From IMG/VR virus record IMGVR_UViG_3300015179_000038: a stretch of 6,790 bases of DNA. One strand, written 5' to 3'. The notes below the pieces were generated by a model, which saw only the letters and a list, made by a program, of their open reading frames with translations, was not told the DNA's origin and searched no databases. This stretch comes from a virus (lineage: Duplodnaviria > Heunggongvirae > Uroviricota > Caudoviricetes). Position numbers and translations under genes: made by a program. Every line of letters starts with the position of its first letter. Positions within the stretch are counted from its first letter, which is position 1. Below are positions 503 to 6,790 of this stretch, piece after piece.

Positions 503-786
503 TTTTTACCCCCTGCGACCAGCATTTCACGAATTTTGCGGATATGACTTGCTGCACGTTTCTGATTTACGGCTTTACGATGGCCCACCAGCGTGAAATC
601 ACGCCGGAACTGATAAACAGGCATCACGCAGTCATATTCGTAGCCATCACGGCGGTAAGTGATGCGCCGTTCTGCCACGCCTTTTATCGTTACCGTGCCG
701 CCATAGTTATCCCGGAAAATATCGCCGGGGCGGATTTCAGGCCGAGCGGGGCCGCTGGCAGTAAAGCCAGAATTTTTCTTTTTCAT
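499..786 (-). CDS. Hypothetical small protein B (95 aa)
   Basis: Track ORF. ATG at 786-784 with GGAG about 10 nt upstream; E. coli-like codon usage (CTG, GGC, CGC); stop overlaps the start of gene A. No recognisable domain. Confidence 0.6.
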   Translation of the reverse strand: MKKKNSGFTASGPARPEIRPGDIFRDNYGGTVTIKGVAERRITYRRDGYEYDCVMPVYQFRRDFTLVGHRKAVNQKRAASHIRKIREMLVAGGKK

Positions 787-792
787 GTTTTT

Positions 793-999
793 TTACTCCA
801 GAGGCAGCTTTTTAGCGGCGAGCTCAATATCAGATGTCAGAGAAACCTGTGTATTTGCCAGGTCTAACAACAAAGAAATAAGAATTTCTTCTCTGCTATC
901 GGATTTATCGGTGCTAAGGCTGTTCATCCACATATTGACGACTTCCCTGATTTTTTTTCGCAGAGTGCAGGGCTTCAAATGCCAGGTCTTCAATATCAT
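793..999 (-). CDS. Hypothetical small protein orf68 (68 aa)
   Basis: Track ORF filling the gap between C and B in the same orientation. Its ATG lies 2 nt after the stop of C, and its last codons (CTG GAG TAA) supply the SD for B. Weak own SD, so it depends on translational coupling. Confidence 0.4.
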   Translation of the reverse strand: MILKTWHLKPCTLRKKIREVVNMWMNSLSTDKSDSREEILISLLLDLANTQVSLTSDIELAAKKLPLE

Positions 1000-1001
1000 G
1001 T

Positions 1002-1214
1002 TTATTTCGCATAATCGCCCCCGCGTAGCTGGTCTGCACTAACACCCGATTTAGTGAGCATTTCAGAAAATCCCGCAAGAGTGCTGATAAATTCGTTTTC
1101 CATTAAACGGCACTGACATTTAACCCGGCCTTTTTCCAGATACACCAGTACGCGCCCCGTATAATCTGACGGCACATTCAGCACTACAGGTAAGTGCGAT
1201 TCATGATTATGCAT
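1002..1214 (-). CDS. Hypothetical small protein C (70 aa), paralog of D
   Basis: Track ORF. ATG 1214-1212 preceded by GGGGGTGAG SD inside the 3' end of D; overlaps the D stop by 8 nt. Gap-free alignment with D from residue 19 gives about 13/40 identities (TG-LV--KGRV-C--L). Confidence 0.6.
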   Translation of the reverse strand: MHNHESHLPVVLNVPSDYTGRVLVYLEKGRVKCQCRLMENEFISTLAGFSEMLTKSGVSADQLRGGDYAK

Positions 1215-1416
1215 GTCTCACCCCCTGAATATTCGCATTAATCATTCCGGCACGTTCTGCGAGTTCCTGTAATGATTCCCTTGTTGCGACAATGGCTTCA
1301 TCTGGCAGGTGGTAATTACACACCACGCGACCTTTATCCACATTGACCAGTAGCTGCCCGGTAAATTTCTCACGAAACTGAACGCGGTTAAGGTCGGTAA
1401 GTGACAGGTTAATCAT
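1207..1416 (-). CDS. Hypothetical small protein D (69 aa), paralog of C
   Basis: Track ORF. ATG 1416-1414 preceded by AGGGGGAA SD; start overlaps the TAA stop of E (ATGATTAA). Shares the TGxxLV..KGRVxC core with C. Confidence 0.65.
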   Translation of the reverse strand: MINLSLTDLNRVQFREKFTGQLLVNVDKGRVVCNYHLPDEAIVATRESLQELAERAGMINANIQGVRHA

Positions 1417-1612
1417 GGTGTTCCCCCTGGCGAATACGGGCAGCGAATACCATCACGCAGCCATCAGGAGATTGCTGACGCGCTTCCTGTTCGCTGGTAG
1501 CCTCAATGGTAATCACGCGCGGTTGTGCCGTGCTCAGGGCGATAAAACGCCAGATGTATTTATTCAGGTTGTACGAGTCCCGCCCTTGCGGGTGTCTGGT
1601 ATAATTTCTCAT
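1409..1612 (-). CDS. Hypothetical small protein E (67 aa), first gene of the minus-strand operon
   Basis: In-frame ATG at 1612-1610 inside the 373-aa track ORF, preceded by GAGGT SD at 5-nt spacing. Translation MRNYTRHPQGRDSYNLNKYIWRFIALSTAQPRVITIEATSEQEARQQSPDGCVMVFAARIRQGEHHD looks protein-like, unlike the Cys/Arg/Ser-rich upstream part of that ORF. Confidence 0.5.
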   Translation of the reverse strand: MRNYTRHPQGRDSYNLNKYIWRFIALSTAQPRVITIEATSEQEARQQSPDGCVMVFAARIRQGEHHD

Positions 1613-1708
1613 AGCTACCTCGATACGCTTTCTATCGTTGGTGGTTAGAAGCCCGGTTAGTGTTAGCGCACTGCCGGGTTTCGTCGTTTCTGCACCTTGC
1701 ATCAGTAA

Positions 1709-1763
1709 GGTGTTGAACACCAATTTAAGCTCTGGTGTTAAACACGTCAAGTGTTGAACACTT
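1709..1763. promoter_or_regulatory. Divergent promoter region with three palindromic operator-like sites GTGTT(G/A)AACAC
   Basis: Sites at 1709-1721 (GGTGTTGAACACC), 1734-1745 (GGTGTTAAACAC) and 1749-1763 (AAGTGTTGAACACTT). Candidate + promoter: -35 TTGAAC 1754-1759, -10 CATACT 1777-1782, leading to the ORF at 1812. Candidate - promoter: -35 TTGACG at 1750..1745, -10 TTAAAT at 1728..1723, leading to gene E. The palindromes overlap both. Confidence 0.5.
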
Positions 1764-1811
1764 ATTTTTTTTCCTGCATACTGCATTTGTTTTTTGTAAG
1801 GGGTACACAAC

Positions 1812-1991
1812 ATGGCAACAAAAGCAGTAAACGCAAAATCACAAACAGTTGCGGCAAGGGTTCCGCATGAAGTTATGAACAATGTTGAGGCGGTAAAAAT
1901 GCCTGGTGAAAGTACAGGGCAGTTTGTAACAGCAGCATTAAAGCGAGAAGTTGAATACCGCCAGCGTCGCAAGGCCAAAGAGCAGGAATAA
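1812..1991 (+). CDS. Small ribbon-helix-helix (Arc/CopG-like) DNA-binding protein candidate, 59 aa
   Basis: Not in the supplied track (too short). ATG 1812 with AAGGGG SD 8 nt upstream; TAA at 1989-1991. MATKAVNAKSQTVAARVPHEVMNNVEAVKMPGESTGQFVTAALKREVEYRQRRKAKEQE fits a beta-strand/helix/G-x-S/helix RHH pattern (compare P22 Arc) by eye. Confidence 0.5.
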   Translation: MATKAVNAKSQTVAARVPHEVMNNVEAVKMPGESTGQFVTAALKREVEYRQRRKAKEQE

Positions 1992-2048
1992 CCATCACCA
2001 GCGCCGTGGTGTAAGGTATTACGGCGCATTGCTATGCAGGACAACACA

Positions 2049-2222
2049 ATGACCGATAAAGAATTGACCAAAACATTATCACCGACACGGAAAAGACGGC
2101 GCAGAAAGATAGAGCATGAATCAGAAAGATTCGCGCCATGTGCTTTTGCCCTTGAGCAATTCCTTAAAGAGTACAGGGAAAAGCGCTCATTGCAGGTATG
2201 GCAACGAACTGAACCAGACTGA
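2049..2222 (+). CDS. Hypothetical small basic protein (57 aa from second ATG; track calls 2034)
   Basis: Track ORF 2034-2222. ATG at 2049 has AGGA about 7 nt upstream; ATG at 2034 has none. Highly basic (RKRRRRK); followed by an intrinsic terminator. Weak support. Confidence 0.3.
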   Translation: MTDKELTKTLSPTRKRRRRKIEHESERFAPCAFALEQFLKEYREKRSLQVWQRTEPD

Positions 2223-2288
2223 TTGCATTGCCCACCAGCCGCAAATGTGGCATTGTTGGTGATGCTTTTGTTTTCCCTTGTTCCCACT

Positions 2289-2318
2289 GGCGACCCTTTT
2301 GCGGTCGCCTTTGTTTTG
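2289..2318 (+). terminator. Rho-independent terminator (stem GGCGACC/GGTCGCC, loop CTTTTGC, T-tract)
   Basis: Perfect 7-bp GC-rich stem 2289-2295/2303-2309 followed by TTTGTTTTG. Downstream of the + strand small ORFs. Confidence 0.6.
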
Positions 2319-2413
2319 CTTGTTATCCGGCAATAGTGGCGCTTCACCACACGGTTGATATAATTCCCCTGCACTGATCCATTTTTTTCGCAGCAGGTTA
2401 ATTGTTCAGAAAG

Positions 2414-2441
2414 GCGGTTCCTTATCGGGGCCGCTTTTTTT
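2414..2441 (+). terminator. Rho-independent terminator (8-bp stem with 2 G-U pairs, then TTTTTTT)
   Basis: GCGGTTCC 2414-2421, loop TTATC, GGGGCCGC 2427-2434, T7 run 2435-2441. No T-run on the opposite strand. Confidence 0.6.
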
Positions 2442-2582
2442 ATGCCTGAAAATACCCGATAACATGGCTTTTTAGTTTCACCAGGACGAACGAAGCCCCG
2501 CCCCTGTTCGGGCGTATATCCAGTATTCATGGTTAGATCTCTGTGTTAGTGGATGGGTGGCGGCGGTGCGCCGCCAGCCTGA

Positions 2583-2771
2583 TTAGTGAACTGCCTCGCG
2601 GCTGTCCTTCCATGCCAGAACTTCGGATAAAGACCAGCCAACGGAACGACCGCCGAGTTTACGCCGTGATGGGAATTGTCCGGTCTTCTCCAGGCGATAC
2701 CGACATGAGCGGCTCAGGCCTGTAAGTTGCTGACATTCTTTTTCACGTATAAAGCGATCTGTGCTTAACAC
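2583..2771 (-). CDS. alpA: AlpA/Vis-family phage transcriptional regulator / excisionase-like protein (62 aa)
   Basis: Track ORF; GTG start at 2771 with AAAGGGGG SD. FIREKECQQLTGLSRSCRYRLEKTGQFPSRRKLGGRSVGWSLSEVLAWK matches the AlpA (Phage_AlpA, MerR-like HTH) pattern L-G-S-R-STIYR-GxFP-K-G-R-W-E-W. Same strand as and downstream of int, as in CP4-57 and PICI-type elements. Confidence 0.85.
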   Translation of the reverse strand: MLSTDRFIREKECQQLTGLSRSCRYRLEKTGQFPSRRKLGGRSVGWSLSEVLAWKDSREAVH

Positions 2772-2934
2772 AATTCCCCCTTTGTTGTTTCTTAAAGAGT
2801 CATTGGGTGGGTTATTGGGTTGGGTTGTGTCTGATTGTGTCAGGATGATTCAGAGTTGGCAAATGTTGAGTCCGTATGGTTTACAGAAAGAGGAACAATC
2901 AGGATAAAATCATTTAAATTCATATTAATACAAA

Positions 2935-2963
2935 GGCATAAAATCTCGTTTTATGCCTTTTTT
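2935..2963. terminator. Hairpin with flanking T-runs (potentially bidirectional) between int and alpA
   Basis: Perfect 9-bp stem GGCATAAAA/TTTTATGCC with loop TCTCG, followed on + by TTTTTT and on - by TTTGTATT. Plausibly ends the int transcript before the alpA promoter region. Confidence 0.45.
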
Positions 2964-3054
2964 CTCACGCGTTAAAGCGTTATTCGCTAATGTATAAAAA
3001 ACCAGTCATACAAATAAAATCAGTCACTTATAAACCTGTGTACTTTTTCGCCTC

Positions 3055-3104
3055 TTGTTCGTGGTTGTTCCACGTTGTTTCACATTGTTCGCCGTTGTAT
3101 CTGT
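3055..3104. repeat. Five phased 10-bp direct repeats, consensus TTGTTC-NNNN (iteron-like)
   Basis: TTGTTCGTGG, TTGTTCCACG, TTGTTTCACA, TTGTTCGCCG, TTGTATCTGT at exactly 10-bp register, 43 bp 3' of the int stop. Confidence 0.6.
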
Positions 3105-3146
3105 GTGCTTATCCAGTATGCGCATACTGAAAAAACACGAAAAAAA

Positions 3147-4394
3147 TTATTTTCTTCTGGCTGCTGGTAGTGCGGTTACGTTTTCATGTGCTCCCGCCAG
3201 TATCCCTAACCGCTCCGTCCACATATCCAGCGCATTGCGTTTCGCATCCAGATAACGGGAGTGATTATAGACTCGTTGCATCCCTGGCATCTGGTGTCCT
3301 GTAAGCTGCTCCACGACATGCGGATCAACGCCTAAATCGTTCAGCATGGTTGTAAAGGTGCGCCGGATGTCATGCAGTGACCAGTGGGGGTGATTAAGCC
3401 TCCTGTGCGCTAATCTTCCATACTGCGATACGCTGGCCTCCTGTTTCACTTCCCCCAGCAATAAGCCCGTGTGCCTGTTCTGCTCCACCAGCTGCGTGAT
3501 GAACGGCAGTATTGCTTCCGGTATAGGCCGGAATATGGCTACCTTCGTTTTGCTGTGCTCCTTCGGAACGGTCCAGAGCATTTCGGTAAAATCCCACTCG
3601 CCGATCTCCGATAACCTAAGTTCGACCGTCCGGCATCCGAACACAATCAGGAGGCGGATTAGCGCGATGTAGTAGGGGGAAAATATTTTTTTGTCCAGTG
3701 CCTGCAATAATTCGCCCAGCTCTTTATTGCTTAAGACTCGTTCGCTTATATCCGGTTTTTTCCCAACGTCCGCTACGTTCAGATCATCGAGAACGTTACT
3801 GATTGCATAGCGCCGCCTCCGGCAGTACTTAAGCGCCTGTTTGCATGTCTGTAGCACGAATCCGGCAGTAACAGGTGTTCGCTTTGCCACCTGGTCAAAG
3901 CAGGCCAGCCAGTGCCGTAGCTCGCATTTATCCAGCGGCATAGCACCAATTTTGGTGATTATGTTTTTATTGATCCGGCTTTTCAGTGATTCGTAATCTG
4001 TGCGCTTTTCCTTTGCGTACGACTCAAGCCAATAGGTGAGCGCATCGCCAACCGTTACAGGCTTTAACGCTTCCTGCATGGTGTAATTCAGTTCATAGCG
4101 TGGATTTTTCCCCTCAGCCAGCCATGCGCGACACTGGGCGGCTTTTTCCCTGGCTGCTTTCAGACTCAGATCGGGATAATTTCCCAGCTTAACGCGTTCA
4201 GGTTGTGTCCCTCTTCCCATTCCGGCCCTGTATGTGAAATACCAGGTTAAAAGGCCGCTGGTTGAATGCCTGACGCTCAGGTTTCCACCGTCATTAAGAA
4301 AGGCTGTTTTTTGGACGGGTGTGCCGTTGATTTTCCTTAGTTGTGTGTCACTCAGTTTGTTAAGTGCTCTGCTCATAATTTTGATTCCGGTCAT
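3147..4394 (-). CDS. int: P4-family tyrosine integrase (site-specific recombinase)
   Basis: Track ORF 3147-4397 (GTG); ATG at 4394 or 4376 (MSRALNKLSD) is more likely. N-terminus LSDTQLRK...FLNDGGNLSV...WYFTYR fits the P4-type arm-binding domain; C-terminus has the box II HDIRRT ... LTGH ... RVYNHSRY tyrosine-recombinase motif with the catalytic Arg region GCRTVELRL. Confidence 0.9.
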   Translation of the reverse strand: MTGIKIMSRALNKLSDTQLRKINGTPVQKTAFLNDGGNLSVRHSTSGLLTWYFTYRAGMGRGTQPERVKLGNYPDLSLKAAREKAAQCRAWLAEGKNPRYELNYTMQEALKPVTVGDALTYWLESYAKEKRTDYESLKSRINKNIITKIGAMPLDKCELRHWLACFDQVAKRTPVTAGFVLQTCKQALKYCRRRRYAISNVLDDLNVADVGKKPDISERVLSNKELGELLQALDKKIFSPYYIALIRLLIVFGCRTVELRLSEIGEWDFTEMLWTVPKEHSKTKVAIFRPIPEAILPFITQLVEQNRHTGLLLGEVKQEASVSQYGRLAHRRLNHPHWSLHDIRRTFTTMLNDLGVDPHVVEQLTGHQMPGMQRVYNHSRYLDAKRNALDMWTERLGILAGAHENVTALPAARRK

Positions 4395-4398
4395 CACA

Positions 4399-4527
4399 AT
4401 TAACTACACCATTAACTACACCGATCGTTGCACAAAGGGCTACAACGTGAAACAAGCTGAAACAAGGAAAATTAAAAATCCGTTGAAAATCAAAAACATA
4501 ACGAACAACCTGAAACATTGTGAAACA
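4399..4527. repeat. Putative att / integrase arm-site region: tandem 12-mer ATTAACTACACC x2 plus phased TGAAACA repeats
   Basis: ATTAACTACACC at 4399-4410 and 4411-4422. TGAAACA at 4448, 4458, 4511 and 4521 (two pairs at 10-bp spacing), with degenerate copies at 4484 and 4502. Lies between the int 5' end and the allE start. Confidence 0.5.
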
Positions 4528-4548
4528 GTAAAAAACACTATTTGATAA

Positions 4549-5334
4549 AAGGGATATTTAAATAACGTCACCGGTTACCGCGATGATTTACTGGCTAACC
4601 GTGCGATTGTTAAACACGGTAATTTCGCACTGTTAACACCAGACGGTCTGGTAAAAAATATTATTCCGGGCTTTGAAAATTGTGACGCGACAATCCTCTC
4701 CACGCCAAAGCTGGGTGCCTCTTTTGTTGATTATCTGGTCACACTGCATCAAAACGGTGGCAACCAACAGGGCTTCGGTGGCGAAGGCATTGAAACGTTC
4801 CTGTATGTGATCTCTGGAAATATCACTGCCAAAGCCGAAGGCAAAACATTTGCCTTAAGCGAAGGTGGCTATCTTTATTGCCCGCCAGGCTCCTTAATGA
4901 CGTTTGTTAACGCCCATGCCGAAGACAGCCAAATCTTTTTATATAAGCGCCGCTATGTTCCAATAGAAGGCCATGCACCGTGGCTGGTTTCTGGCAATGC
5001 CAGCGAACTGGAACGCATTCATTATGAAGGCATGGACGATGTTATTCTGCTGGATTTTCTGCCCAAAGAGTTAGGTTTTGATATGAACATGCATATCCTC
5101 TCTTTTGCACCAGGTGCCAGCCACGGTTATATCGAAACACACGTTCAGGAACACGGTGCCTATATTCTTTCCGGTCAGGGGGTTTATAACCTCGACAATA
5201 ACTGGATCCCGGTGAAAAAAGGCGATTACATCTTTATGGGCGCTTATTCTTTACAGGCTGGTTATGGTGTAGGGCGTGGTGAAGCGTTCAGCTATATTTA
5301 CTCGAAAGATTGTAACCGCGACGTAGAGATTTAA
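4549..5334 (+). CDS. allE: (S)-ureidoglycine aminohydrolase (cupin; YlbA/AllE); frame lacks a canonical start codon here
   Basis: The track ORF starts at GTG 4807, but the frame is open and protein-like from 4549 (KGYLNNVTGYREDLLANRAIVKHGNFALL...), giving 261 codons to TAA 5332-5334, which matches the length I recall for E. coli AllE. Codon 4549-4551 is AAG, preceded by TGA TAA. Confidence 0.75.
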   Translation, partial: KGYLNNVTGYRDDLLANRAIVKHGNFALLTPDGLVKNIIPGFENCDATILSTPKLGASFVDYLVTLHQNGGNQQGFGGEGIETFLYVISGNITAKAEGKTFALSEGGYLYCPPGSLMTFVNAHAEDSQIFLYKRRYVPIEGHAPWLVSGNASELERIHYEGMDDVILLDFLPKELGFDMNMHILSFAPGASHGYIETHVQEHGAYILSGQGVYNLDNNWIPVKKGDYIFMGAYSLQAGYGVGRGEAFSYIYSKDCNRDVEI

Positions 5335-5376
5335 GTCATACCACTCGCCTGATTATTTTTAGCTATGTTGGATTTT

Positions 5377-5403
5377 GCCACGGTTTATACCGTGGCTTTT
5401 TTT
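5377..5403 (+). terminator. Rho-independent terminator of allE
   Basis: Stem GCCACGG/CCGTGGC with loop TTTATA followed by TTTTTTT (5397-5403), 43 nt after the allE stop. Confidence 0.7.
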
Positions 5404-5410
5404 GTAACAT

Positions 5411-5561: not shown

Positions 5562-6707
5562 TCAGTTTTTAATTCCCTGACCTATTTTAATGGCGCAGGC
5601 AATATTTCGCGCGCTGTTGAAGAGATTGGTTTCACCGCTGGCGAGCACTTCGGCTAAAGGTGCCAGACGAGGCAAAATGCTGAATACCGCGTCAATGCCG
5701 TACTGGTGCACCACTTCCACGCCATCACCCAATACGCCAGCAATCCCAATCACCGGTACATTAAACTGCTTCGCCACCGACGCCACACCCAGCGGCGCTT
5801 TACCGCCTGCCGTTTGCGAGTCGATGCGCCCTTCCCCGGTAATCACCAGTGCTGCGCCCTGCACTGCCTGCGCAAGATTGACCGCATTCAACACAATCTC
5901 AATACCTGGTTTAATATCCGCATTGAGAAATACCGCCGCCGCAATACCCATACCGCCCGCAGCGCCGCCGCCCGCCATCTGGCAGACGTTGATTTCAGTT
6001 TGCTGTTGTAAAACACGGGCGTAATTTTGCAGCCCCTGTTCCAGCTCTTCGACCATTTCCGGCGTTGCCCCTTTTTGCGGGCCAAACACCGCCGCCGCGC
6101 CGCGTGCCCCTACCAGCGGGTTATCAACGTCACATGCTACTTCAATATGGCAATTCGCCAGACGCGGATCGCATTCATCCATCTCAATGCTTGCCACGCG
6201 CGCTAAATTACCGCCGTTAGCCACCAGCACCTGACCGTCGGCATCAAGGAAACGCACACCGAGCGCCTGCGCCATGCCCATACCGCCGTCGACCGTCGCA
6301 CTGCCGCCAATGCCGAGAATAATATGGCGAATGCCGTTATCCAGCGCATGACGAATTAACTCCCCCGTACCAAAACTGGAGGCCAGCAACGGATTACGCT
6401 TTTCAGGCGCGACCAGCATCAGGCCACTTGCTGCCGCCATCTCAATCACCGCCGTTTTCCCGTCGCCGGTAAGGCCATAAAAAGCATTCACTTTTTCGCC
6501 CATCGGCCCGCAGACTTCAAGCGTCACGATGTTGCCGCCCGTCGCGGCGACCATCGCATCCACCGTCCCTTCGCCGCCATCCGCTATCGGCAAACAGATA
6601 TAGTTCGCATCGGGAAAGAGGGTCGAAAACCCGGCTTTAATTGCCTGACAACATTTTTCTGCACTTAAGCTCTCTTTAAAAGAGTCTGGCGCAATGACAA
6701 TCTTCAT
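5562..6707 (-). CDS. glxK: Glycerate kinase II (glycerate 2-kinase, allantoin/glyoxylate pathway)
   Basis: The track ORF (383 aa) starts at TTG 6713; the likely start is ATG 6707 ([27 protein letters not shown]...) with AAGGA SD, giving 381 aa. Full-length glycerate kinase family protein, recognised as E. coli GlxK. TGA stop at 5564-5562. Confidence 0.93.
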
Positions 6708-6758: not shown

Positions 6759-6790
6759 AGATCGGAAGAGCACACGTCTGAACTCCAGTC
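6759..6790. other. Illumina TruSeq adapter sequence (technical artefact at contig end)
   Basis: AGATCGGAAGAGCACACGTCTGAACTCCAGTC is the standard TruSeq read-1 3' adapter. Genomic sequence ends at 6758. Confidence 0.95.

What the first reader, a model, noticed from the sequence alone, without database searches (positions are those of the whole stretch)
4395..4560. Element junction sits exactly at the allE start, and allE has no start codon
The int 5' end and its repeat-rich att-like region run up to 4548, where TGA TAA (4543-4548) is followed by AAG (4549-4551) and then the conserved AllE N-terminus (GYLNNVTGYREDLL...). The first in-frame ATG/GTG/TTG is GTG at 4807, 86 codons downstream, inside the cupin fold. 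Integration (or a later mutation) therefore appears to have removed or mutated the native initiator and separated allE from the upstream allDC genes. Integration at the 5' end of a protein-coding gene is unusual for P4-family integrases, which normally target tRNA 3' ends.
Basis: partly seen in the sequence, partly recalled or inferred. Interest (0 to 1): 0.6.

Follow-up and report, generated by a model that had tools for sequence, protein, structure and literature searches.

The report
Phage satellite integrated across allE start codon
A phage satellite (a capsid-forming PICI) has inserted by site-specific recombination exactly across the start codon of the E. coli allantoin gene allE, turning ATG into AAG and cutting the gene off from its ribosome-binding site and promoter; this is a tidy but ordinary outcome for this integrase family.

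Summary
TGA TAA (4543-4548) is followed by AAG (4549-4551) and an intact AllE frame; the first canonical in-frame start is GTG at 4807. The cause is integration, not mutation or a consensus error. All 13 complete E. coli genomes with an element here read TTGATAAAA|GGGATAT|TTAAATAAC at this junction. The allC-side junction (11 genomes fetched, plus 3 other contigs) keeps ATAAAT|GGGATAT. 5316 of 5426 genomes have the uninterrupted site with ATG. The 7-bp crossover segment GGGATAT (4551-4557) starts at the G of the start codon. Integration swaps the host half-site CATAAAT for the element's GATAAAA, giving AAG. The AAGGAG ribosome-binding site and the allD promoter stay 10-15 kb away. allE is therefore probably silent (inferred), and excision should restore it. 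RefSeq hides this by calling a 744-bp allE from CTG (4591). The element is a capsid-forming PICI with a P4-type integrase. I rate it a new attachment site of a known kind, of modest interest.

The parts
3147..4376 (-). Tyrosine integrase of the satellite (409 aa), transcribed away from allE.
   Evidence: Pfam finds Arm-DNA-bind_3, Phage_int_M (weak) and Phage_integrase. PGAP annotates the same 1230-bp CDS in all occupied genomes.
2583..2771 (-). AlpA-family regulator or excisionase-like gene of the satellite.
   Evidence: Pfam Phage_AlpA, E = 2.7e-18.
4377..4550 (.). P arm of attP, now the element side of attR. It runs from the integrase start to the core half-site.
   Evidence: It is conserved in relatives at other attB sites up to (G/T)ATAAA(A/T) and then diverges.
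4399..4422 (+). Doubled 12-mer ATTAACTACACC x2, a candidate arm-type protein-binding site. [quoted passage not shown]
   Evidence: Searches place it at -155..-132 and +78..+101 from the overlap centre. Its reverse complement is listed as the 'att core' of EcCIDI14 in PMC6092414 Table S1. Doubled motifs are also described in PICI attP arms in PMC10111431.
4448..4464 (+). TGAAACA pair with 10-bp phasing, a candidate arm-type or AlpA site.
4511..4527 (+). Second TGAAACA pair with 10-bp phasing.
4544..4550 (+). Element-derived core half-site GATAAAA. It replaces the host half-site CATAAAT. Base 4550 (A where the host has T) destroys the ATG.
   Evidence: attB, attL and attR compared. The same half-site precedes different 7-bp overlaps at roxA and tqsA, with one-base variants at the MFS and cspD sites. 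In the roxA-type attP it forms a perfect inverted repeat, GATAAAA|7 bp|TTTTATC.
4551..4557 (+). Inferred 7-bp crossover (overlap) segment GGGATAT. It is shared by attB, attL and attR, and its first base is the G of the former start codon.
   Evidence: attL and attR differ on the left at 4550 and on the right at 4558. Both strand exchanges must therefore fall within these 7 bases.
4549..4551 (+). AAG at the position of the native allE ATG.
   Evidence: The same in 13 of 13 occupied genomes.
4552..5334 (+). The allE (ylbA) reading frame, codons 2-261 plus the stop. It is intact but has no initiator, Shine-Dalgarno sequence or operon promoter.
   Evidence: 1RC6 aligned over 2-261. (anti-SD duplex -8.8 kcal/mol at the native site, +0.6 here). 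(no promoter-like site on the + strand upstream).
4591..4593 (+). CTG that PGAP uses as the allE start in every occupied genome, giving a 744-bp CDS. This is probably an annotation rescue rather than a real start.
   Evidence: There is no Shine-Dalgarno sequence (-2.4 kcal/mol). CUG initiates at 0.02-3% of AUG (bioRxiv 10.1101/063800).
4807..4809 (+). First canonical in-frame start (GTG), at codon 87. A product from here would lack 86 N-terminal residues and part of the first cupin domain.
   Evidence: Cupin_3 spans residues 56-136.
5562..6707 (-). glxK, the native neighbour convergent with allE. It shows that the chromosome resumes normally.

Best explanation
The window holds the right junction (attR) of a capsid-forming phage-inducible chromosomal island (cf-PICI) integrated by its own tyrosine integrase between allC and allE. 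The bacterial site reads CATAAAT|GGGATAT|TTAAATA, and the ATG of allE spans the left cleavage point: A and T lie in the left half-site, and G is the first base of the 7-bp overlap. The element's site reads GATAAAA|GGGATAT|ATCTATA. After strand exchange within GGGATAT, the host left half-site stays at the allC side (attL), together with the AAGGAG ribosome-binding site, allDC and the AllS-dependent allD promoter. The allE body is joined to the element's GATAAAA, so ATG becomes AAG. That much is shown by sequence comparison. It is inferred that allE is silenced or nearly so, because it has no promoter, no Shine-Dalgarno sequence and no usable start. It is also inferred that precise excision would rebuild the ATG, because attL keeps ATAAAT. 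The A at 4550 is simply the family's conserved core half-site, not a change specific to allE.
For: The native site with ATG and AAGGAG is shown, and is intact in 5316 of 5426 genomes. attL reads ATAAAT|GGGATAT|ATCTATAAC in 11 of 11 occupied genomes fetched and in 3 further contigs. attR reads TTGATAAAA|GGGATAT|TTAAATAAC in 13 of 13 occupied genomes and in the window. The elements at the site run from 10.4 to 14.9 kb and carry different replication and capsid modules, and the host backgrounds differ, which argues for repeated integration. Full copies carry int, alpA, a primase or RepA helicase, SSB, capsid, protease, portal, connector, HNH, TerS and TerL, with no tail or lysis genes. Relatives at four other sites share the P arm up to (G/T)ATAAA(A/T), followed by a site-specific 7-mer. 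The roxA-type attP has perfect inverted half-sites around 7 bp. The anti-SD pairing energy is -8.8 kcal/mol at the native site against +0.6 at attR. No promoter-like site on the + strand lies upstream. Non-cognate codons initiate at 0.01-1% of AUG. allD-allC-allE is one AllS-activated operon (PMC12535856).
Against: No expression data exist, so silencing is inferred. PGAP finds a CTG start 14 codons in, and distant homologues begin to align only at residues 13-21, so a protein shortened by 14 residues might still fold if it were made. Transcription from inside the element, for example from the + strand YlcI/YnfO gene at 1812-1991, could read into allE. No excised attP form was found in any collection, so current mobility is not shown. 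The exact cleavage positions are inferred from sequence, not mapped. Replacement of one island by another in situ through homologous recombination could mimic independent integrations.
Confidence: 0.85

Rival explanations
1. AAG is a point mutation acquired after integration, or an assembly or consensus error in this contig.
For: The contig is lightly curated. Its last 31 bases (6760-6790) are Illumina adapter sequence.
Against: The identical AAG junction occurs in 13 of 13 complete genomes that carry diverged elements. The A is part of the GATAAAA half-site that relatives at roxA and tqsA also carry.
Confidence: 0.02
2. allE stays functional in carriers. It would be translated from CTG at 4591, as RefSeq annotates, or from another near-cognate codon, on a transcript that starts in the P arm or inside the island. 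Integration would then be nearly neutral.
For: PGAP calls an intact 744-bp allE in 12 of 13 occupied genomes. The frame is undamaged. The first ~12-20 residues are poorly conserved in distant homologues.
Against: There is no Shine-Dalgarno sequence before CTG (-2.4 kcal/mol against -8.8 at the native site). CUG initiates at 0.02-3% of AUG even with a good ribosome-binding site. No promoter-like site is found upstream. The operon promoter is 10-15 kb away, across genes transcribed towards it.
Confidence: 0.1
3. The junction arose by illegitimate recombination or deletion next to a degraded island, not by site-specific integration at a dedicated attB.
For: Some copies are decayed. E300010 has a 10.4-kb copy with fused or pseudogenised genes, and AST85 has a partial capsid gene.
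Against: Both junctions are base-identical in every occupied genome, share a 7-bp direct repeat, and no host sequence is lost. The attP architecture is preserved in both arms.
Confidence: 0.01

Closest known systems
EcCIEDL933, the prototype capsid-forming PICI of E. coli O157:H7, integrated between phoQ and ycfD/roxA (bioRxiv 10.1101/2022.09.08.507074; the phoQ-ycfD/roxA site is listed, for EcCICFT073, in PMC6092414 Table S1)
   Same: The integrase is 93% identical in amino acids. The P arm is identical up to GATAAAA. Both have the same doubled ATTAACTACACC motif and TGRAACA pairs in both arms, the same int-alpA layout, and a capsid and packaging module without tail genes.
   Different: The 7-bp overlap and the next 24 nt of attP differ (TATGTCC+TTTTATC... 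against GGGATAT+ATCTATA...). Its attB lies just after the phoQ stop codon and 81 bp upstream of roxA, so no start codon is destroyed.
tqsA-site PICIs (EcCI042 and EcCIK1516; PMC6092414 Table S1)
   Same: Same integrase family (89% amino-acid identity), with the same P arm and C half-site. Integration damages the 5' end of a host protein-coding gene: tqsA is annotated as missing its N-terminus.
   Different: The crossover lies inside the tqsA coding sequence and removes codons. At allE only the initiator and upstream signals are lost.
Helper-embedded PICIs (PMC10111431)
   Same: These are PICIs whose integration interrupts a gene that is expected to be restored on excision. Their attP has a doubled motif in both arms at fixed distances (81 and 132 bp there; about 90 and 143 bp here).
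   Different: They have a different integrase clade and motif sequence, and their targets are helper-prophage late genes rather than a chromosomal metabolic gene.
Satellite phage P4 integrase at the tRNA-Leu gene (my own knowledge, not tested here)
   Same: The integrase has the same domain architecture: an Arm-DNA-bind_3 N-terminal domain plus a tyrosine recombinase catalytic domain.
   Different: P4 targets the 3' end of a tRNA gene and carries a replacement segment that keeps the gene intact. Here the target is a protein start codon and no functional replacement is supplied.
Gene-disrupting prophages that act as switches ('active lysogeny'), e.g. Listeria phi10403S in comK or S. aureus phi13 in hlb (my own knowledge, not tested here)
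   Same: Site-specific insertion inactivates a host gene, and precise excision can restore it.
   Different: Regulated excision without loss of the element, and a benefit to the host, have been shown for those prophages. Nothing of the kind is shown here.

Membership tests
Capsid-forming PICI (phage satellite) | Size of 10-18 kb, with an integrase at one end followed by a co-oriented alpA regulator and a replication module (primase or helicase). | tested here: met
   The window holds int, alpA, Icd-like and DUF4222 genes. Full copies at the same site are 10.4-14.9 kb and carry a primase or RepA helicase plus SSB.
Capsid-forming PICI (phage satellite) | Own packaging module (capsid, protease, portal, connector, HNH, TerS, TerL) and no tail or lysis genes. 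| tested here: met
   This holds for near-identical copies in E200086, AST19, E203449, 100117 and AST240. That part of the element lies outside the window, so for the window's own copy it is inferred from 99% identity over 1414-4550.
Capsid-forming PICI (phage satellite) | Induction, packaging and transfer by a helper phage. | not testable with these tools
   This needs experiments. No excised or packaged attP form was found in the sequence collections.
Lambda-type tyrosine-integrase attachment site | A short (typically 7-bp) identity segment shared by attP and attB, within which the strands cross over. | tested here: met
   GGGATAT is the only stretch bounded by attL/attR differences on both sides. 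Relatives carry a different 7-mer at the same position.
Lambda-type tyrosine-integrase attachment site | Inverted core-type half-sites flanking the overlap. | tested here: inconclusive
   They are perfect in the roxA-type attP (GATAAAA/TTTTATC). In the allE-type attP and in attB the right half-site is degenerate (ATCTATA and TTAAATA).
Lambda-type tyrosine-integrase attachment site | Arm-type repeats in both arms, and a site for a DNA-bending protein. | tested here: met
   Doubled 12-mers and phased TGRAACA pairs occur in both arms, and there is an IHF-consensus match at +23..+35. Protein binding was not tested.
P4-type integrase | An Arm-DNA-bind_3 (DUF4102) N-terminal domain plus a Phage_integrase catalytic domain. 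| tested here: met
   Pfam E-values of 8.6e-18 and 2.9e-16.
P4-type integrase | Target is the 3' end of a tRNA gene, with restoration of the gene. | tested here: not met
   The target is the allE start codon. Relatives use roxA, tqsA, MFS and cspD sites.
AllE, (S)-ureidoglycine aminohydrolase | Full-length bicupin orthologous to YlbA. | tested here: met
   Residues 2-261 align to PDB 1RC6 with a handful of substitutions. Cupin_3 and Cupin_2 domains are present.
AllE, (S)-ureidoglycine aminohydrolase | Expressible gene with a start codon, a Shine-Dalgarno sequence and a place in the allDCE operon. | tested here: not met
   AAG replaces ATG, there is no Shine-Dalgarno sequence, and allDC lies 10-15 kb away.
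Active-lysogeny type regulatory switch | Regulated, reversible excision that restores the gene and benefits the host. | not testable with these tools
   Only the sequence prerequisite is met: attL keeps ATAAAT and the Shine-Dalgarno sequence, so precise excision would rebuild the ATG.

The most novel reading that the evidence does not exclude
Integration and excision of the satellite act as a reversible on/off switch for allE, and so for anaerobic or starvation use of allantoin nitrogen. Carriers would be allE-null until helper-phage or SOS-triggered excision rebuilds the ATG. The start-codon-spanning attB would then be a selected target, not just a tolerated one. Related side reading: the family is redirected between attB sites by swapping a 31-nt attP core cassette, with no diagnostic change in the integrase protein.
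Probability: 0.12. Interest if true: 0.55.

Novelty: new member of a known kind. Interest (0 to 1): 0.3.

Why it matters
This adds a precisely mapped attachment site to the known repertoire of E. coli PICI and cf-PICI sites. I did not find it in the 2018 site table or in the full text of the held papers. It is a clear example of a crossover point that splits a start codon, so carriage of the satellite should cost the host one allantoin-pathway enzyme, reversibly. There is also a practical annotation point. RefSeq reports these genes as intact 247-aa AllE proteins starting at CTG, which hides a probable knockout from pangenome and metabolic-model pipelines. The family comparison suggests that target choice follows a small attP cassette rather than the integrase protein. 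If confirmed, that is relevant to how satellites change sites and to engineering tyrosine integrases.

Tried and rejected
1. Sequencing error or later mutation: rejected, because the junction is identical in 13 of 13 complete genomes.

2. An upstream in-frame start supplied by the element: rejected. TGA TAA lie immediately before AAG. The 103-aa ORF at 4234-4545 is in frame but ends at those stops and is antisense to int.

3. A promoter in the P arm reading into allE: none was found by the consensus scan. This is a weak negative.

4. An excised attP form as proof of activity: none found. The exact-pattern scans returned either nothing (viral contigs; metagenome; species-representative genomes) or only three further integrated attL junctions.

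5. Extra decay of the allantoin cluster in carriers. Five of 11 carriers have a pseudogene in the cluster: allC stop, allE frameshift, allW stop twice, and a fdrA/ylbE fusion. But 3 of 4 randomly taken non-carriers also have one (hyi frameshift twice; ybbY frameshift plus an IS66 element). There is no signal, so I dropped this line.

6. Literature on allE/ylbA as an integration site: no paper found. Table S2 of the cf-PICI paper, which lists six attB sites, is not held, so prior listing cannot be fully excluded.

7. Integrase residues that explain the roxA against allE site choice: only three columns discriminate in a small sample, so no convincing determinant emerged.

Full report
**What is in the window.** The window reads TGA TAA at 4543-4548, AAG at 4549-4551, then GGA TAT TTA AAT AAC and onwards. 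From codon 2 the frame is an intact AllE. Residues 2-261 align end to end with E. coli YlbA (PDB 1RC6, E = 1.5e-177) with only a few substitutions. The ORF list confirms that the first ATG/GTG/TTG after the two stops is GTG at 4807, 86 codons in. Upstream on the minus strand lie a 409-aa integrase (3147-4376; Arm-DNA-bind_3 plus Phage_integrase) and an AlpA-family gene (2583-2771). Downstream, glxK converges on allE as in the normal chromosome. Three small corrections apply: the window encodes ...YRDDLL rather than ...YREDLL, the integrase most likely starts at the ATG at 4376, and native homology begins at 4545 rather than 4549.

**Comparison with the empty and occupied site.**
- A K-12-type chromosome reads CAGAAATAAGGAGTC ATAAATGGGATAT TTAAATAACGTC. 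allC ends 10 bp before the allE ATG, and an AAGGAG Shine-Dalgarno sequence lies between them.
- This uninterrupted arrangement is present in 5316 of 5426 complete E. coli genomes.
- Thirteen genomes carry an element here.
- In all 11 where I fetched both ends, the allC-side junction (attL) reads (C/T)ATAAAT|GGGATAT|ATCTATAAC. Three more contigs, from a metagenome and from IMG/VR, show the same attL.
- In all 13, and in the window, the int-side junction (attR) reads TTGATAAAA|GGGATAT|TTAAATAAC.
- attP and attB therefore share a 13-bp block, ATAAA[A/T]GGGATAT, whose single mismatch is the T of the start codon (window base 4550).
- attL and attR differ at 4550 on the left and at 4558 on the right. 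Both strand exchanges must therefore fall within GGGATAT (4551-4557), the 7 bp expected for a tyrosine integrase (general rule quoted in PMC10111431).
- The ATG straddles the left cleavage point. A and T belong to the host half-site and go with attL. G is the first base of the overlap.
- AAG is thus the fixed product of recombination. It is not a mutation or a consensus error.

**What the element is.** Copies nearly identical to the window's (99.2-99.5% over 1414-5406 or further) are 14.7-14.9 kb long. They encode int, alpA, Icd-like, DUF4222, primase, SSB, ProQ/FinO, major capsid protein, prohead protease, portal, head-tail connector, HNH, TerS and TerL. They have no tail or lysis genes. This is the published gene set of capsid-forming PICIs (bioRxiv 10.1101/2022.09.08.507074 and 10.1101/2025.02.11.637232). 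Other occupants of the same site carry a RepA helicase, a PerC regulator, a lambda-like capsid with a decoration protein, or are partly deleted. Sizes range from 10.4 to 14.9 kb, and the host backgrounds differ. That fits repeated integration at a dedicated site, although in-situ exchange between islands cannot be excluded.

**Architecture of the attachment site.** I reconstructed attP from attR and attL and numbered it from the centre of the overlap. Window coordinates are given where the motif lies in the window.

| Position in attP | Motif | Window coordinates |
|---|---|---|
| -155 to -132 | doubled ATTAACTACACC | 4399-4422 |
| -106 and -96 | TGAAACA pair, 10-bp phase | 4448-4464 |
| -43 and -33 | TGAAACA pair, 10-bp phase | 4511-4527 |
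| +23 to +35 | IHF-consensus match (minus strand) | outside window |
| +78 to +101 | doubled ATTAACTACACC | outside window |
| +117 and +127 | TGAAACA and TGGAACA pair | outside window |

All the repeats are co-oriented. TGRAACA is enriched in the window: 9 matches against 2.1 expected, with 0 of 200 shuffles reaching 9. A doubled motif in both arms at fixed distances has been described for other PICIs (PMC10111431). The reverse complement of this particular doubled motif was listed as the "att core" of EcCIDI14 in the 2018 PICI survey (PMC6092414 Table S1). It is more likely an arm site. Which protein binds which repeat was not tested.

**Relatives at other sites.** DNA at least 80% identical to this integrase and P arm occurs in 1151 of 5426 genomes, almost all at other loci. 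I looked at five site types.

| Site | Junction | Position relative to host gene |
|---|---|---|
| allE | GATAAAA\|GGGATAT | at the start codon |
| phoQ-roxA (the EcCIEDL933 site) | GATAAAA\|TATGTCC | just after the phoQ stop, 81 bp upstream of roxA |
| tqsA | GATAAAA\|TGCTGTT | inside the gene, which RefSeq flags as missing its N-terminus |
| MFS transporter gene | TATAAAA\|ATCCGCT | 57 bp upstream of the gene |
| cspD | GATAAAT\|AACTATC | next to cspD/yljB |

- The P arm and left half-site are conserved, and the next 7 bases are site-specific. This independently supports the placement of the overlap.
- The roxA-type attP has perfect inverted half-sites, GATAAAA|TATGTCC|TTTTATC.
- The A at 4550 is therefore the family's ordinary core half-site, not a feature peculiar to allE.
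- Integration next to or inside the 5' end of a protein-coding gene is normal for this clade.

**Consequence for allE (inferred).**
- allD-allC-allE is one AllS-activated, anaerobically expressed operon (PMC12535856). After integration its promoter, allDC and the allE Shine-Dalgarno sequence sit at attL, 10-15 kb away across genes transcribed in the opposite direction.
- Anti-SD pairing energy falls from -8.8 kcal/mol at the native site to +0.6 at attR. It is -2.4 before CTG at 4591 and +0.4 before GTG at 4807.
- No promoter-like site on the + strand lies upstream.
- Non-cognate codons such as AAG initiate at roughly 0.01-1% of AUG, and CUG at 0.02-3%, even with a good ribosome-binding site (bioRxiv 10.1101/063800).
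- I therefore expect carriers to be allE-null or severe hypomorphs. Excision should rebuild ATAAATGGGATAT, because attL retains ATAAAT.
- RefSeq annotates allE in every occupied genome as a 744-bp CDS starting at that CTG (one copy is frameshifted), against 786 bp in empty-site genomes. This looks like an annotation rescue that hides the lesion.
- The phenotype may be mild. From my own knowledge (Serventi et al. 2010, which appears in the reference list shown but which I did not read), ureidoglycine also decays spontaneously.

**Checks that led nowhere.**
- No excised attP form was found in the viral, metagenome or species-representative genome collections.
- Pseudogenes in the allantoin cluster are no more frequent in carriers (5 of 11) than in a small sample of non-carriers (3 of 4).
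- No paper in the held library mentions allE/ylbA as an attachment site. The 2018 table of E. coli PICI sites lacks it. The cf-PICI paper's own site table could not be read.

**A side observation.** Integrases at the allE site are 89.5-95% identical to one another in amino acids. Integrases at the roxA site are 91-94.6% identical to those at the allE site. One allE-site integrase is closer to a roxA-site integrase (94.6%) than to the window's (90.5%), and only three columns (58, 129, 396) separate the two groups. What does differ consistently is a 31-nt attP cassette: the overlap plus 24 nt on the P' side, of equal length in both types. Target choice in this family may therefore be set mainly by that cassette. 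The sample is small, and this was not tested further.

**Verdict.** The core of the interpretation (integration removed the initiator and uncoupled allE from allDC) is supported and refined to base resolution. The "later mutation" and "unusual for this integrase family" parts are not supported. This is a new attachment site for a known kind of element, of modest interest.

Noticed in passing
window 6760-6790: The last 31 bases, AGATCGGAAGAGCACACGTCTGAACTCCAGTC, are Illumina TruSeq adapter sequence. Homology to E. coli stops at 6759. The contig end is untrimmed read-through, not biology.
   Followed up: yes
window 4544-4557; L004 4195-4232 and 15398-15418; L019, L020, L021 junctions: Integrases at the allE and roxA sites are interleaved in sequence (89.5-95% identity within the allE group, 91-94.6% between groups, only 3 discriminating columns). 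The attP differs by a 31-nt cassette made of the 7-bp overlap plus 24 nt. Target choice may be set by the cassette rather than the protein.
   Followed up: partly
window 4399-4422; L003 attL side, +78..+101 from the overlap centre: The doubled motif ATTAACTACACC x2 lies in both arms. Its reverse complement is listed as the 'att core' of EcCIDI14 in Table S1 of PMC6092414. It is probably an arm-type binding site, not the crossover core.
   Followed up: partly
window 3054-3099: A TGGAACA/TGAAACA pair with 10-bp phasing lies on the minus strand just downstream of the int stop, in the int-alpA intergenic region. It is inverted relative to the P-arm pairs. It may be a regulatory or AlpA site.
   Followed up: no
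L002 7836-7874 and the equivalent position in all occupied loci: At attL the orphaned allE Shine-Dalgarno sequence and ATG now open a 12-codon ORF (MGYIYNLFSITH*) that runs into the element's P' arm. Its last codons vary between elements, so it is probably meaningless.
   Followed up: no
window 513-1413: This stretch, covering the DUF4222 gene and small ORFs, is mosaic. It matches some islands at the site at 99.6% (1-793 in L008 and L009) and others at only about 81% or not at all. Islands sharing this attB appear to exchange modules.
   Followed up: partly
window 1409-2530 (minus strand): The 373-aa ORF listed here is mostly not a gene. RefSeq annotates an Icd-like gene and a partial pseudogene in this stretch, with a YlcI/YnfO gene (1812-1991) on the opposite strand.
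   Followed up: partly
L009 17292-18034; L002 6590-7825; L005 and L012 allW; L011 fdrA/ylbE: Several carrier genomes have pseudogenes in the allantoin cluster. A small sample of non-carriers (L022, L023, L025) has them at a similar rate, so this is not evidence of relaxed selection.
   Followed up: yes
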